Source: Escherichia phage JoYop. From it: a DNA stretch of 64,000 bases. The notes beneath the pieces are model-generated. The model made no database searches. It saw only the letters and a list, made by a program, of their open reading frames with translations, and had not been told where the DNA came from. Shown here piece by piece: positions 9,877-41,883 of this stretch. The stretch is taken from the sequence record OR769032.1; one strand, 5' to 3'. Both the position numbers and the translations under genes were made by a program. The stretch's first letter is position 1, and every line of letters begins with the position of its first letter.

Positions 9877-10092
9877 TTAAGCCTTTTTATCAAGAACAGA
9901 ATTCAGCTTATTAGTAATTTTATCCAGACGCGCATTGAACTCGCTAGAAGACAGTCCTTTTTCTGGAGAAATCAAACTAATCACGAAAAATATAACAATA
10001 AAAGGAATAAGGAAAATAGCTCCAACTGCCATAAACAGAAAGAATGTTACAGTTGTAAGAAAATCAGCTAAACCTTTACGAAATTTATACAT
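9877..10092 (-). CDS. small hydrophobic membrane protein
   Basis: Track start is TTG; ATG at 10092 with AAGGG SD; strongly hydrophobic segment FLFMAVGAIFLIPFIVIFFVISLI. Confidence 0.4.
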   Translation of the reverse strand: MYKFRKGLADFLTTVTFFLFMAVGAIFLIPFIVIFFVISLISPEKGLSSSEFNARLDKITNKLNSVLDKKA

Positions 10093-19060: not shown

Positions 19061-19468
19061 TCACTCAATTTCAATTTTACTAAATACACAGAATATGATT
19101 GAACAGACTACATAAGCACCACACACAGATTGAACTAATACCATCCCAAAGAACCAAACAATATTATCAAACAGTGTCTGTTTTACGTCGAAAGGACGTA
19201 AACTTACAGTAATATTATCACCTTTTTCTATTGAAGAATACATCTCTGGGGAAATATATTCACTAAATCTATAACCGTCTTTGAGTTCATATACGGCAAT
19301 AAACGATAAACTAGACCCTTTTCCTTGTGTTCCTGTAATAGTATTAACTACAGTAACATCATAATCTTTATAATGCATATAATCATTAATAGCATAATAA
19401 CCATATGCAACTACTATACATAAACAACATATCAATAAATTCAATCTTTTAATTATCAACTGTTTCAT
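19061..19468 (-). CDS. membrane protein (N- and C-terminal hydrophobic helices)
   Basis: 135 aa; hydrophobic segments LLICCLCIVVAYGYYAI and VWFFGMVLVQSVCGAYVVCSIIF. Confidence 0.45.
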   Translation of the reverse strand: MKQLIIKRLNLLICCLCIVVAYGYYAINDYMHYKDYDVTVVNTITGTQGKGSSLSFIAVYELKDGYRFSEYISPEMYSSIEKGDNITVSLRPFDVKQTLFDNIVWFFGMVLVQSVCGAYVVCSIIFCVFSKIEIE

Positions 19469-27949: not shown

Positions 27950-28158
27950 AACCATGTAACCTTTAAGCAATATTCTTCTACGTGTTGTTTACGACCTTTC
28001 TTATCAATAAAAGTATATTCAACGAATGTTCCAATATAGTCTTTATCTACATCATGTGGACTATTAATTGGGCATTTAGTACGGCAAATGCGTTCCCATT
28101 GACGAATAATTTCCACTTTGTTTTTAGGGTCAAATGGATGCGGGTAATGTGCTTTCAT
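27946..28158 (-). CDS. hypothetical protein
   Basis: 70-aa ORF, ATG start. Confidence 0.4.
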   Translation of the reverse strand: MKAHYPHPFDPKNKVEIIRQWERICRTKCPINSPHDVDKDYIGTFVEYTFIDKKGRKQHVEEYCLKVTWL

Positions 28159-28609
28159 AATCTACCACTATTAAATCAATATCAGGAGTAAACATGTCGA
28201 TTAATTTAGAAACCTTATCCCAATCACCGCCAGCAATACCACAACCTATACGTGGAATGTAAATTACCGGTTTAAACAAAAGGGTTTCTGCCTGCAGATT
28301 TAATTCTATCATACAGTTTACTAAAGCACCATAATCAAGATTAGGACCTGGTTCATATTGCGTATACAGGTTGTAACATATGCCAAAACCATTAGGTTTA
28401 TGTTTAAAAACTATAGACATATCACCGAGTTTTTCACGCGAACCATATTCAGTTGTAGTCTTATCTATTTCTAAAATTTTAGGATAAGCCCTTGCTAATT
28501 GACCAGCTACACCACTGCCCATCGTATGAAAACAGTTGCACCCGTGCGCAATAATATTACCTTCAAGAAAGAGGGCGACAATATCGCCCTTGATATATTT
28601 TACAATCAT
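28130..28609 (-). CDS. macro-domain-like protein (possible ADP-ribose binding or hydrolysis)
   Basis: 159 aa; GDIV...IIAHGCNC...MGSGVAG...IGCGIAGG mirrors the macro-domain GDIT / NAAN / GGGV / G-I-Y-G layout. Confidence 0.45.
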   Translation of the reverse strand: MIVKYIKGDIVALFLEGNIIAHGCNCFHTMGSGVAGQLARAYPKILEIDKTTTEYGSREKLGDMSIVFKHKPNGFGICYNLYTQYEPGPNLDYGALVNCMIELNLQAETLLFKPVIYIPRIGCGIAGGDWDKVSKLIDMFTPDIDLIVVDYESTLPASI

Positions 28610-28953
28610 CTAGTACTCAATCCTCGATTATAAGAATCTACTAAACGGTCAACCATTGAACGACAAGCGGCTTTGTCTTTTTCCTCCGCAACTGAACATT
28701 CTAAGGTATTCCACTTTTTAGCATATCGTTTTAATAATGTATCGTTTTTGTATCTACTTGTTTTATCTCTTTCTCCGTCTTTATATGCATATATTAATTT
28801 CTGCGCAAACTCAGATTGACATGCTTTATTTTTCCCACAATAATCTGCCGCAGTGCGGTTCACATACTCCCTAATTTCAGTATATGATGTATCTGCTGAC
28901 GCATAAGCAGAAAATGAAATTAATCCTATACATAAAACCAAAATTTTAGTCAT
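28606..28953 (-). CDS. secreted or periplasmic small protein
   Basis: 115 aa; N-terminal signal peptide MTKILVLCIGLISFSAYASA; 4 Cys in mature part. Confidence 0.45.
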   Translation of the reverse strand: MTKILVLCIGLISFSAYASADTSYTEIREYVNRTAADYCGKNKACQSEFAQKLIYAYKDGERDKTSRYKNDTLLKRYAKKWNTLECSVAEEKDKAACRSMVDRLVDSYNRGLSTR

Positions 28954-29491
28954 TTACTATTTCCAAAAGTTTATTATTTTTAAGGTAATTAGCCTTTTCT
29001 AGGACTTCAGAAGCATATTTAGAACCTGCTTTAACATTCCATCCCGAATTATAAGAGGATATTGCTTTTCTTATATCGCCCTTATGTATATTTAACCAAT
29101 AAGAAAGTTCAATGTACGCCCATGAAGCTGAATTGGATCGTTTATTCAACATTCTTTTTATTTCAGCATCGGTCATATTATAACCAAGTTCCTTAACTCT
29201 TGCTCTCATAGTAGGCAAATAATTTTGGAACATTCCATAAGCGTGATGCTTTGGTTTAGATTTTAAATTAACTCCGCCAGAGCTTTCTTGCCATAAAATG
29301 GCTGCCATTATATGACCTAATCCACTCTTATGAACATTTTGGTGTGTTTTATATTTTCCATCCTTAGAAAACTGTTCCCCGAATTGATACGCGTAACGCA
29401 TGTTATCGAGTTGGACATTACTGAAAGTATGCTCGGAGCTATGTGCCATCATTGAAATGGCCAATAGACCAGCGAGTAGTGCTTTTCTCAT
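28946..29491 (-). CDS. secreted lytic transglycosylase-like protein (SLT/GH23-like)
   Basis: 181 aa; signal peptide MRKALLAGLLAISMMAHS; SLT-type motifs WQESSGG and AYGMFQ, later SYNSG. Confidence 0.55.
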   Translation of the reverse strand: MRKALLAGLLAISMMAHSSEHTFSNVQLDNMRYAYQFGEQFSKDGKYKTHQNVHKSGLGHIMAAILWQESSGGVNLKSKPKHHAYGMFQNYLPTMRARVKELGYNMTDAEIKRMLNKRSNSASWAYIELSYWLNIHKGDIRKAISSYNSGWNVKAGSKYASEVLEKANYLKNNKLLEIVND

Positions 29492-29498
29492 GTTTGCC

Positions 29499-29960
29499 TC
29501 ATTGAGTTTTAATTACTGCTTTAGAAGCCTTTCCTGGTAAACGACGACTGTTGATAATTGCCATCCTGCATTGAAGTGACGGGTCTTTGAACTTCTCATT
29601 AGGTTTACAAACCGTAAATCCAAGCCAAAGATTTCCATCAGTGATTTCTAAACGTCCAGGGCGATATTCAATTCCATCGATAAAATCTTCATCAATATCA
29701 GGACGCGGAGGCATACTCAGGAATTCATTAACTTCTAAAACATGGTCTTTTATTTTATGGAATAATTCAAAAACATATGTCTCATCAATCTCCCGTTGAA
29801 TTGCACGATCAAGAAGATGCTGAGAATATTTTAGATGAAACGATGAGACCCCTGCTGCTTTTGATGCCTCACGAATCTCATTGTTAATTTGACGAAACTC
29901 CGACTCAAAGTGACGACGAAGCTTATTTCGACGGATAAAAACTTCTGTGTTGATAGTCAT
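29499..29960 (-). CDS. regB: Site-specific endoribonuclease RegB
   Basis: 153 aa MTINTEVFIRRNKLRRHFESEFRQ... recognised as T4 RegB. Confidence 0.85.
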   Translation of the reverse strand: MTINTEVFIRRNKLRRHFESEFRQINNEIREASKAAGVSSFHLKYSQHLLDRAIQREIDETYVFELFHKIKDHVLEVNEFLSMPPRPDIDEDFIDGIEYRPGRLEITDGNLWLGFTVCKPNEKFKDPSLQCRMAIINSRRLPGKASKAVIKTQ

Positions 29961-29987: not shown

Positions 29988-30017
29988 ATTATACCACAGT
30001 CAAGAGGAAAAGTAAAC
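29988..30017 (-). promoter_or_regulatory. T4-type early promoter
   Basis: Minus strand GTTTACT-(18 nt)-TGG-TATAAT. Confidence 0.55.
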
Positions 30018-30019
30018 AG

Positions 30020-30298
30020 TTATTCTTTAAATCTGATCAATTTATTCATAGACTTTGAAACTTCTGCACGAACCTCATGCAGATTTTTGAGCTGTTCAAG
30101 ACGCTGCGTATAGTAAGCAATTTCATCTTCTTCAAGACAGTCCTGCGAATCTTCTTTAAGATAGCGTGCATAATCCTGGAAAGCATTACGAATTACTTCT
30201 TGGAAGTCATCAAGACTTTGAATTTTCTTAGGAGCGGCAGATACACGACGAGGTGCAGTATAATACTCATAACCAAACCCTGCGCTTAATTGAGCCAT
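30020..30298 (-). CDS. hypothetical protein
   Basis: Track start GTG; ATG at 30298 in TAATG overlap with upstream gene. Confidence 0.4.
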
Positions 30299-30564
30299 TA
30301 GTATTTTTCCTCTGGTTGGAACACAGCACGGCAAGCCCACATACTTGCTTCTTTGAGTTTCGTTTTAGCAATAGTTAACTGATCGAGGCTTTCGGCGTAA
30401 TTCTTCGCGAGTTCATCATCTTCACAGCTATCAAATGCTTCCCAAAATTCATCGTATAAAGCATCAAAGATAAGTCCTAAACGAACTTCAGCGTCTTTGA
30501 TAGCATTTACTTTACCGATTTTTTCGTCGGTATGTGGCTTATAACCTTTAATATCTTCAATCAT
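30298..30564 (-). CDS. hypothetical acidic protein
   Basis: Track start TTG; ATG at 30564 with GAGGAAG SD. Confidence 0.4.
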
Positions 30565-41697: not shown

Positions 41698-41883
41698 CTA
41701 TTCACCTTTAGAAATTTTATCCATAACAATAGCGATTAAACCAATTAAAAATGCTACTACAAGTGAAAAAACATTTTCTGCTGTAGTTAATAATCCGCAT
41801 ATAAATCCAACAAACATTGAAAAACTAAAAGCAGAAGCAGAAATTGCAATAGCAACATTTCGAATTAATTCACAACGTTTCAT
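41698..41883 (-). CDS. small membrane protein
   Basis: 61 aa, largely hydrophobic (AIAISASAFSFSMFVGFICGLL...VVAFLIGLIAIV). Confidence 0.4.
   Translation of the reverse strand: MKRCELIRNVAIAISASAFSFSMFVGFICGLLTTAENVFSLVVAFLIGLIAIVMDKISKGE

What the first reader, a model, noticed from the sequence alone, without database searches (positions are those of the whole stretch)
28606..29491. Two consecutive signal-peptide proteins including an SLT-type lytic transglycosylase
ORF 28946-29491 has a cleavable signal peptide and SLT/GH23 motifs (WQESSGG, AYGMFQ), so it is an exported peptidoglycan-cleaving enzyme distinct from the cytoplasmic endolysin e and the gp5 tail lysozyme. The neighbouring 115-aa ORF also has a signal peptide. 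Exported early-region muralytic proteins could act in lysis timing, superinfection or cell-wall remodelling.
Basis: partly seen in the sequence, partly recalled or inferred. Interest (0 to 1): 0.4.

Follow-up and report, generated by a model that had tools for sequence, protein, structure and literature searches.

The report
T4 vs.1 transglycosylase and Vs pair
These are the phage T4 genes vs.1 (an exported cell-wall-cutting enzyme, already noted in the literature) and vs, which is ordinary except that Vs, labelled a modifier of a cytoplasmic enzyme, looks like a secreted protein.

Summary
The window is a Tequatrovirus genome. On the minus strand, 28946-29491 is vs.1 (181 aa, 99% identical to T4) and 28606-28953 is vs (115 aa, 97% identical); they overlap by 8 nt, between regB and tk.4.

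The less expected part is Vs, annotated as a valyl-tRNA synthetase modifier. It has a textbook signal peptide in every homologue, and a lipobox in one distant homologue. It also has four invariant cysteines on a four-helix bundle. That implies an exported protein, which conflicts with a cytoplasmic target.

Public transposon data for T4 and Bas37 show that insertions in vs and vs.1, unlike their neighbours, are under-represented. vs is the strongest hit in minimal medium. Enzyme activity, export and any Vs-Vs.1 link remain untested.

The parts
28946..29491 (-). vs.1 CDS, 181 aa: signal peptide plus a single GH23/SLT domain
29438..29491 (-). Vs.1 predicted Sec signal peptide (residues 1-18, MRKALLAGLLAISMMAHS|S)
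   Evidence: Layout is n-region MRK, 13-residue hydrophobic core, then A-H-S at -3/-1. The low-pLDDT N-terminal helix is separate from the domain. An equivalent segment is present in all 29 homologues, although its sequence varies, and in Aeromonas, Kuttervirus, Felixounavirus and Slopekvirus homologues.
29273..29293 (-). Motif I, W67-Q-E69-S70-S-G-G73; the E69 codon is 29285-29287 (predicted catalytic acid/base)
   Evidence: E69 is invariant and S70 at least 90% conserved. hhalign places E69 on Slt70 E505 (precursor) and MltE E64. It sits at the C-terminal end of helix 59-70.
29225..29242 (-). Motif II, A84-Y-G86-M-F88-Q89 (equivalent of GLMQ)
   Evidence: G86, F88 and Q89 are invariant. The motif aligns to GLMQ of Slt70 and MltE.
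29042..29053 (-). Motif III, Y147-N148-S-G150 (equivalent of AYNxG)
   Evidence: Y147, N148 and G150 are invariant.
28606..28953 (-). vs CDS, 115 aa: signal peptide plus a four-helix bundle with four conserved Cys; annotated 'valyl-tRNA synthetase modifier'
   Evidence: ORF. 97% identical to T4 NP_049724. phrog_1256. Homologues carry PF26829. AF2 model pLDDT 83.5, helices 22-39, 43-63, 70-86 and 91-112. C39, C45, C86 and C97 are invariant.
28894..28953 (-). Vs predicted Sec signal peptide (residues 1-20, MTKILVLCIGLISFSAYASA|D)
   Evidence: Layout and A-S-A site. pLDDT below 50 for residues 1-20. The segment is kept in all 13 homologues. Distant homologue P0096 has the lipobox LSGC instead, and P0095 has an SPase I-type signal.
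28946..28953 (-). 8-nt overlap of the vs.1 stop with the vs start (ATGACTAA)
   Evidence: Stop/start overlap of the two genes is also kept in distant T4-like contigs L009 and L010.
29988..30016 (-). Sigma-70-like promoter upstream of regB (TTTACT-17-TATAAT with TG), the likely start of the regB-vs.1-vs transcript
   Evidence: Consensus scan, 10 of 12 matches; the scan alone is not evidence of function. T4 vs and vs.1 RNAs are classed as early.
29499..29960 (-). regB (context: upstream gene on the same strand)
   Evidence: Pfam REGB_T4, E 9.6e-69. The regB-vs.1 adjacency is kept in Aeromonas phage phiAS4 and in L009.
28130..28609 (-). tk.4 macro-domain gene (context: downstream, 4-nt overlap with vs)
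   Evidence: Pfam Macro, E 2.4e-8. T4 Tk.4 was named AdfM, an anti-DarTG2 factor, in 10.1101/2025.11.20.689424.

Best explanation
The two ORFs are the orthologues of phage T4 vs.1 and vs. They are probably transcribed early from the regB promoter region, and vs is translated from a start that overlaps the vs.1 stop.

Vs.1 is made as a precursor with a short Sec signal peptide. It is exported and cleaved around A16-H17-S18. The result is a basic (pI about 9.6), roughly 18.8 kDa soluble periplasmic enzyme consisting of one GH23/SLT domain. Using E69 as its single acid/base, it cleaves the MurNAc-GlcNAc bond of host peptidoglycan, most likely as a lytic transglycosylase that forms 1,6-anhydro-MurNAc.

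Vs.1 is a non-essential accessory enzyme. It remodels or loosens the sacculus of the infected cell from the pre-replicative period onward and contributes measurably to phage fitness.

Vs is most likely also exported. The mature protein would be about 11.1 kDa, a four-helix bundle pinned by two disulfides.

What is shown: gene identity, domain and fold, motif conservation, signal-peptide architecture, early RNA with middle-phase protein in T4, and non-essentiality with reduced insertion counts. What is inferred: actual export and cleavage, enzymatic activity and product, and the biological role.
For: Identity: 99% and 97% to T4 Vs.1 and Vs, with the T4 gene order tk ... tk.4 - vs - vs.1 - regB.

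Domain and fold:
- Pfam SLT scores above the gathering threshold.
- The AF2 model has pLDDT 88.6.
- The top 19 Foldseek hits are GH23 enzymes at probability 0.91-1.00 (lytic transglycosylases MltD, Slt, Slt70 and LtgA, plus a GH23 chitinase).

Catalytic apparatus:
- E69, G86, F88, Q89, Y147, N148, G150, Y159 and V163 are invariant in 29 homologues down to 40% identity; S70 is at least 90% conserved.
- E69 aligns with the catalytic Glu of Slt70 and MltE.
- No invariant Asp lies between motifs I and II, which favours a transglycosylase over a g-type lysozyme hydrolase.

Export:
- The n-h-c architecture has a 13-residue hydrophobic core and a small-x-small site.
- It is kept in all homologues, including those in Ackermannviridae and Felixounavirus.

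Expression and phenotype (published data):
- Early RNA, middle-phase protein (PMC9697503 supplement).
- Non-essential, with 46 of 52 TA sites hit.
- Mean insertion counts after growth on K-12 in LB are far lower than in neighbouring genes. In T4: vs.1 22.6 and vs 26.6, against regB 178.6, tk.4 289.6 and vs.3 652. In Bas37: 73.8 and 23.5, against 296-620.
- vs.1 is significantly depleted on isolate CFE299 (log2FC -1.20, adjusted p 0.015).
Against: - No enzymatic, localisation or cleavage data exist for Vs.1 in anything I could read.
- The Pfam score is only 3.7 bits above the cut-off. Sequence-only searches of the PDB found nothing. The hhalign alignments to single sequences are not statistically significant on their own.
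- SignalP could not be run.
- The low transposon counts in vs.1 could be a polar effect on vs rather than loss of Vs.1 itself. Count differences between genes are my reading of supplementary tables, not a claim made by the authors.
- An early, exported, active murein-cleaving enzyme must somehow be kept from lysing the cell prematurely, and nothing here shows how.
Confidence: 0.75

Rival explanations
1. Vs.1 and Vs form a periplasmic enzyme-partner module, with Vs as an inhibitor, immunity-like protein or regulator of the transglycosylase. This would be analogous to Spackle restraining the gp5 lysozyme, or to T6SS muramidase effector-immunity pairs. On this reading the 'ValRS modifier' label on this ORF is misassigned or reflects an indirect effect.
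For: - Vs has a canonical signal peptide in all 13 homologues, a lipobox in P0096 and an SPase I-type signal in P0095.
- Four Cys are invariant, located at the hairpin ends of a predicted four-helix bundle.
- Full-length N-His Vs is insoluble in the E. coli cytoplasm (PMC8076793).
- Wherever examined, vs lies immediately downstream of vs.1 with stop/start overlap, even when Vs has diverged to 31% identity while Vs.1 stays at 64%.
- The two genes share an unusual low-insertion-count phenotype in T4 and Bas37.
- T6SS effectors Tse3 and Tge2 appear among the structural neighbours of Vs.1.
Against: - Vs.1 occurs without Vs in about 60% of phage records that carry it (2013 against 795). In those phages the downstream neighbour varies, so a partner is not obligatory.
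- Tight gene overlaps are the rule in T4 genomes; vs and tk.4 overlap too.
- No complex prediction could be run.
- Classical genetics, recalled from memory, links the vs locus to ValRS phenotypes in vivo.
- The minimal-medium phenotype of a vs deletion is naturally explained by amino-acid limitation.
Confidence: 0.25
2. Vs is, as annotated, the 10-kDa factor that binds host valyl-tRNA synthetase in the cytoplasm. Its hydrophobic N-terminus is then not used for export, or only part of the pool is exported. Its position next to vs.1 is coincidental.
For: - The annotation is carried by T4 and hundreds of other records and by phrog_1256 and PF26829.
- Mature or full-length sizes of 11.1 and 13.2 kDa are compatible with the reported ~10 kDa factor. 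That size is from my memory of Muller & Marchin 1977; only the paper's title was seen, in the reference list of PMC8076793.
- vs is the strongest conditionally required T4 gene in M9 minimal medium, and a clean deletion plaques poorly there (table).
Against: - A positively charged n-region, an 11-residue hydrophobic core and an A-x-A site predict the C-terminal domain outside the cytoplasm.
- Replacement by a lipoprotein signal in a homologue is hard to reconcile with a cytoplasmic protein.
- Four invariant Cys suggest structural disulfides, which do not form in the cytoplasm.
- I could not find or read any paper showing how the genetic vs locus was tied to this ORF.
Confidence: 0.3
3. Vs.1 is a membrane-tethered SAR-type (signal-anchor-release) auxiliary endolysin that contributes directly to the final lysis step. 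On this reading it is not a constitutively soluble periplasmic enzyme.
For: - It has an N-terminal hydrophobic segment rich in Ala, Gly, Ser and Met.
- In Felixounavirus the homologue lies near rIIA, rIIB and a spanin gene.
- RI, in the same genome, uses a SAR domain (from knowledge; Antiholin Pfam hit).
Against: - The uncharged core is only about 13 residues, too short for a transmembrane SAR helix.
- It is followed by a small-x-small cleavage site at the same alignment position in all homologues.
- Expression is early to middle, not late.
- Gene e is the essential endolysin in the same dataset (mean count 2.5 in the LB K-12 control), whereas vs.1 is non-essential.
Confidence: 0.07
4. Vs.1 is a catalytically silent peptidoglycan-binding protein or decoy, for example one that titrates host lysozyme or transglycosylase inhibitors.
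For: - No activity has ever been shown.
- The family is divergent from canonical SLT domains: the Pfam score is only marginally above the cut-off and there is no sequence-level PDB hit.
Against: Every residue expected for catalysis and substrate binding in family-1 lytic transglycosylases is invariant, or at least 90% conserved, across homologues down to about 30% identity. A pseudo-enzyme would not be expected to keep them.
Confidence: 0.05

Closest known systems
Phage T4 Vs.1 (NP_049725, UniProt P13311)
   Same: Orthologue: 179 of 181 residues identical, with the same neighbours regB and vs. [quoted passage not shown] 2006, which also cites earlier PSI-BLAST matches to lysozyme. Homologues are named 'Transglycosylase SLT domain-containing protein' in UniRef.
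   Different: Two conservative substitutions (Q51K, V53I). Nothing functional distinguishes it.
Phage T4 Vs (NP_049724, UniProt P13310; PF26829 ValRS_modifier)
   Same: Orthologue, 97% identical, in the same position.
   Different: Four substitutions. The annotated cytoplasmic function does not fit the conserved signal peptide, lipobox variant and four conserved Cys found here.
E. coli MltE (EmtA) and the Slt70 catalytic domain (GH23, family-1 lytic transglycosylases)
   Different: About 17% identity. Vs.1 is a soluble single domain with a cleavable signal, whereas MltE is a lipoprotein and Slt70 has a large superhelical ring. Vs.1 also has an extra N-terminal helix-hairpin (residues about 20-58). 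It is phage-encoded and expressed early in infection.
Specialised transglycosylases of envelope-spanning machines (EtgA, IpgF, IagB, VirB1, P19)
   Different: Those genes sit inside secretion-system or conjugation clusters and act locally for machine assembly. vs.1 sits among early accessory genes with no such machine. EtgA uses an additional Asp (from knowledge), and no conserved equivalent is seen in Vs.1.
T4 Spackle (gp61.3) with the gp5 lysozyme
   Same: Spackle is an early T4 periplasmic protein that binds a muralytic enzyme (PMC7677548 abstract). From memory, it is small and helical with a signal peptide. It is the best precedent for what an exported Vs might do.
Virion-borne phage transglycosylases (T7 gp16 N-terminal domain, phiKZ gp144)
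   Different: From knowledge, those are virion or late proteins without Sec signals, and they act from outside during entry or at lysis. Vs.1 is an early, exported, non-structural protein.

Membership tests
GH23 / SLT-domain lytic transglycosylase (Pfam PF01464) | Match to the SLT profile above the curated threshold | tested here: met
   25 bits against a gathering score of 21.3, E 1.5e-5, residues 61-154. The margin is small.
GH23 / SLT-domain lytic transglycosylase (Pfam PF01464) | Lysozyme-like alpha-helical GH23 fold | tested here: met
GH23 / SLT-domain lytic transglycosylase (Pfam PF01464) | Catalytic Glu at the end of a helix followed by Ser (motif I), plus motifs GLMQ and AYNxG | tested here: met
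   E69 is invariant and S70 at least 90% conserved. G86, F88, Q89, Y147, N148 and G150 are invariant. E69 aligns with Slt70 E505 (precursor) and MltE E64 (motif-level alignment with weak statistics).
GH23 / SLT-domain lytic transglycosylase (Pfam PF01464) | Non-hydrolytic cleavage giving 1,6-anhydro-MurNAc; no second catalytic Asp as in g-type lysozymes | not testable with these tools
   No invariant Asp lies between motifs I and II, which is consistent with a transglycosylase. The reaction product needs biochemistry.
Sec-exported protein with SPase I signal peptide (Vs.1 and Vs) | Basic n-region, 7-15 residue hydrophobic core, small-x-small site, conserved in homologues | tested here: met
   using heuristics only because SignalP was not available. 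Actual export and cleavage were not tested.
SAR (signal-anchor-release) endolysin | N-terminal weakly hydrophobic transmembrane segment of about 18-20 or more residues without a cleavage site, with late expression | tested here: not met
   The core is only 13 residues and is followed by A-H-S|S. RNA is early and protein appears in the middle period.
Specialised transglycosylases of secretion, conjugation or flagellar machines | Encoded within, and dedicated to, an envelope-spanning machine gene cluster | tested here: not met
T4 Vs family (PF26829 ValRS_modifier, phrog_1256) | Sequence membership | tested here: met
   97% identical to T4 Vs. phrog_1256, E 5.4e-39. Homologues carry PF26829. The family has only 8 representatives at 50% identity among 1.84 billion proteins.
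T4 Vs family (PF26829 ValRS_modifier, phrog_1256) | Cytoplasmic location, as required to bind valyl-tRNA synthetase | tested here: not met
   In silico only: a conserved signal peptide, a lipobox in P0096 and four invariant Cys. Binding to ValRS itself cannot be tested here.

The most novel reading that the evidence does not exclude
Vs is an exported, disulfide-bonded periplasmic protein that works on the cell envelope together with the Vs.1 transglycosylase, for example as its regulator or an immunity-like partner. The fitness defect of vs mutants in minimal medium would then be an envelope phenotype. The decades-old 'valyl-tRNA synthetase modifier' label on this ORF would be misassigned, or would reflect an indirect or post-lysis association.
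Probability: 0.25. Interest if true: 0.65.

Novelty: already known. Interest (0 to 1): 0.3.

Why it matters
This is a near-identical copy of two named T4 genes, and the SLT-like nature of vs.1 has been in print since at least 2006, so it adds no new kind of element.

Its residual value has two parts. First, no one appears to have tested what an early, exported murein-cleaving enzyme does for a T-even phage. Yet it is conserved across Straboviridae, Ackermannviridae and Felixounavirus, and transposon data suggest that hitting it costs fitness. Second, the conserved export signals and cysteines of Vs contradict the function written in hundreds of genome records.

Resolving the Vs contradiction would either correct a propagated annotation or reveal how a secreted-looking protein reaches a cytoplasmic synthetase. 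It would also explain the strongest medium-dependent fitness gene found in T4.

Tried and rejected
- Sequence-only searches of solved structures gave nothing for either protein, and nothing for the Vs.1 profile.
- NCBIfam has no model for either protein.
- The Pfam copy available lacks PF26829, so Vs gave only noise hits there.
- An exhaustive profile search for Vs found only 8 representatives, all T4-like, so there are no cellular relatives to borrow a function from.
- I tested whether a conserved small secreted partner follows vs.1 in phages that lack vs. The downstream genes differ (Aeromonas, Kuttervirus, Felixounavirus, Slopekvirus), so an obligatory partner is rejected.
- A lipoprotein reading of T4-type Vs (LVLC) was rejected because the -1 and -2 positions do not fit a lipobox. 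A SAR or transmembrane reading of Vs.1 was rejected on hydrophobic-core length.
- Literature: Miller 2003 and Muller & Marchin 1975 are not held. Searches for how vs was assigned to this ORF found nothing. Several searches failed on term length or returned irrelevant 'vs.' hits.
Full report
**What is there.**

The window is a T4-like (Tequatrovirus) genome. The 2.1 kb around the finding is 97% identical to many Escherichia, Shigella and Yersinia T-even phages. The gene order matches T4: tk, tk.1-tk.4, vs, vs.1, regB, vs.3 and onward, all on the minus strand.

The ORF at 28946-29491 (181 aa) is vs.1, with 179 of 181 residues identical to T4 NP_049725. The ORF at 28606-28953 (115 aa) is vs, 97% identical to T4 NP_049724, annotated 'valyl tRNA synthetase modifier'. 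The vs start overlaps the vs.1 stop by 8 nt (ATGACTAA), and vs overlaps the tk.4 start by 4 nt.

Differences from T4 are mostly synonymous, 8:2 and 12:4 codons. tblastn finds Vs.1 in 2013 phage records and Vs in 795.

**Vs.1 is a GH23 enzyme.**

- Pfam SLT (PF01464) matches residues 61-154 at 25 bits, against a gathering cut-off of 21.3.
- An AlphaFold2 model built on 29 homologues has mean pLDDT 88.6.
- The top 19 Foldseek hits against the PDB are GH23 enzymes: MltD, Slt, Slt70, LtgA and a GH23 chitinase.

In the alignment of 29 homologues (down to 40% identity), E69, G86, F88, Q89, Y147, N148, G150, Y159 and V163 are invariant, and S70 is at least 90% conserved. These correspond to the E-S, GLMQ, AYNxG and Y motifs of family-1 lytic transglycosylases (established knowledge, Blackburn & Clarke classification).

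Profile-to-sequence alignments put E69 on E505 of the Slt70 precursor (E478 of the mature enzyme) and on E64 of MltE, which are the known catalytic residues. They also put GMFQ on GLMQ. Those alignments are weak statistically and are used only for register.

No invariant Asp follows the Glu, which favours a transglycosylase over a hydrolytic g-type lysozyme. Still more distant homologues in Aeromonas Tulanevirus, Kuttervirus (Ackermannviridae), Felixounavirus and Slopekvirus keep the same motifs.

**Export.**

- Vs.1 begins MRK-ALLAGLLAISMMA-AHS|SEH: a basic n-region, a 13-residue core and a small-x-small site.
- The segment is variable in sequence but present in every homologue, and it ends about five residues before the conserved FSNxQLDN helix.
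- In the model it is a detached, low-confidence helix.
- The core is too short for a SAR or transmembrane anchor, and the protein has no Cys, so it is not a lipoprotein.
- SignalP was not available. A crude filter of my own flagged 6 of 135 ORFs in the window, among them these two and the antiholin RI.
- Mature Vs.1 would be about 18.8 kDa with pI 9.6.

**Expression and phenotype, from published data.**

A sigma-70-like promoter (TTTACT-17-TATAAT with an extended TG) lies upstream of regB. No convincing terminator precedes vs.

In T4, vs and vs.1 are classed as early RNA with proteins appearing in the middle period (PMC9697503 supplement).

In the HIDEN-SEQ transposon study (bioRxiv 10.1101/2025.11.20.689424):
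- Both genes are non-essential: 30 of 32 TA sites hit in vs and 46 of 52 in vs.1.
- vs is the most depleted T4 gene in M9-glucose relative to LB (log2FC -2.19, adjusted p reported as 0), and a clean vs deletion plaques poorly on M9.
- vs.1 trends the same way (-0.87, p 0.0055, adjusted 0.155).
- vs.1 is significantly depleted on the isolate CFE299 (-1.20, adjusted p 0.015).

My own reading of their tables: in the LB K-12 control, mean counts in vs (26.6) and vs.1 (22.6) are roughly 7- to 29-fold below the flanking genes (regB 178.6, tk.4 289.6, vs.3 652). The same holds in the independent phage Bas37, at 23.5 and 73.8 against 296-620.

So either both genes contribute to fitness, or insertions in vs.1 are polar on vs. 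The authors argue against widespread polarity, but this locus was not tested for it.

**The neighbour, Vs.**

- Vs starts MTK-ILVLCIGLISF-SAYASA|DTSY, a textbook SPase I signal. All 13 homologues aligned keep such a segment.
- An exhaustive profile search of 1.84 billion representatives finds only 8 family members. One distant member (P0096) has the lipoprotein signal LSGC, and another (P0095) has an SPase I-type signal.
- Four cysteines (C39, C45, C86, C97) are invariant. In the AF2 model (pLDDT 83.5; residues 1-20 disordered) they sit at the ends of the two helical hairpins of a four-helix bundle. Two intra-hairpin disulfides are my inference from this.
- N-terminally His-tagged full-length Vs was insoluble in the E. 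coli cytoplasm (PMC8076793).

All of this points to an extracytoplasmic protein, whereas valyl-tRNA synthetase is cytoplasmic. I could not find or read any paper showing how the genetically defined vs locus was tied to this ORF.

From memory only: the purified factor was about 10 kDa, which would fit the mature 11.1 kDa form, and classical genetics linked vs to valS(ts) phenotypes in vivo. The contradiction is therefore unresolved. The minimal-medium phenotype fits amino-acid limitation at least as well as it fits an envelope role.

**Are Vs and Vs.1 a functional pair?**

For:
- vs has been seen only directly downstream of vs.1 with overlapping stop and start. This holds in the distant contig L009, where Vs is 31% and Vs.1 64% identical to the window proteins, and in L010.
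- The two genes show similar insertion-count behaviour.
- The layout resembles muramidase effector-immunity pairs and the Spackle-gp5 precedent.

Against:
- About 60% of vs.1-bearing phage records lack vs, and there the downstream genes are unrelated.
- Overlapping genes are normal in T4.
- The Vs fold is uninformative.
- No complex prediction could be run.

I rate this reading at about 0.25.

**Verdict.**

It is the T4 vs.1 gene, and its SLT similarity was already reported (PMC1524935). Database names such as 'Transglycosylase SLT domain-containing protein' already reflect that. I therefore file it as already known and score it low.

Two things are worth carrying forward: the untested biology of an early exported murein-cleaving enzyme, and the mismatch between the secreted-protein features of Vs and its annotation.

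Noticed in passing
window 28606-28953 (-): Vs, annotated everywhere as a valyl-tRNA synthetase modifier, has a conserved Sec signal peptide, a lipobox variant in a distant homologue and four invariant Cys. These are features of an exported protein and conflict with a cytoplasmic target.
   Followed up: partly
T4 and Bas37 orthologues of window 28606-29491 (supplementary tables of 10.1101/2025.11.20.689424): After growth on K-12 in LB, transposon insertion counts in vs and vs.1 are several-fold to more than 20-fold lower than in all flanking accessory genes. This holds in two independent T-even phages. The authors discuss only vs, in M9 medium. The cause could be a shared fitness role or a polar effect of vs.1 insertions on vs.
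   Followed up: partly
L009 4324-4743 and L010 778-1185: In two distant T4-like metagenomic contigs, the gene after vs is not the tk.4 macro-domain gene. It is a 135-139 aa protein with its own signal peptide and conserved Cys, giving three consecutive secreted-looking proteins (vs.1, vs and this one).
   Followed up: no
window 28572-28590: A perfect 8-bp GC-rich palindromic hairpin (AGGGCGATATTGTCGCCCT) lies inside the first codons of tk.4, just downstream of the vs stop. The terminator scan picked it up on both strands, and its T-tract is weak. It could be an RNA stability or attenuation element between vs and tk.4.
   Followed up: no
window 28130-28609 (-): The tk.4 macro-domain protein (Pfam Macro, E 2.4e-8). 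Its T4 orthologue was recently named AdfM, an anti-DarTG2 factor.
   Followed up: partly
window 30298-30564 (-): The vs.4 orthologue matches Pfam Acb2_Tad1_hairpin (E 9.4e-20), i.e. an anti-CBASS cyclic-nucleotide sponge. Together with tk.4, this makes the locus rich in counter-defence genes.
   Followed up: partly
window 19061-19468 (-), 41698-41883 (-), 9877-10092 (-): Three further ORFs have signal- or anchor-like hydrophobic N-termini by my crude filter, and none has a Pfam match. The 135-aa ORF starts MKQLIIKRLNLLICCLCIVVA.
   Followed up: no
L005 1540-2537; several phage records: vs.1 homologues are often mislabelled 'endoribonuclease', 'RegB' or 'site-specific RNA endonuclease' in GenBank and UniRef, apparently through annotation spill-over from the adjacent regB gene.
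   Followed up: no
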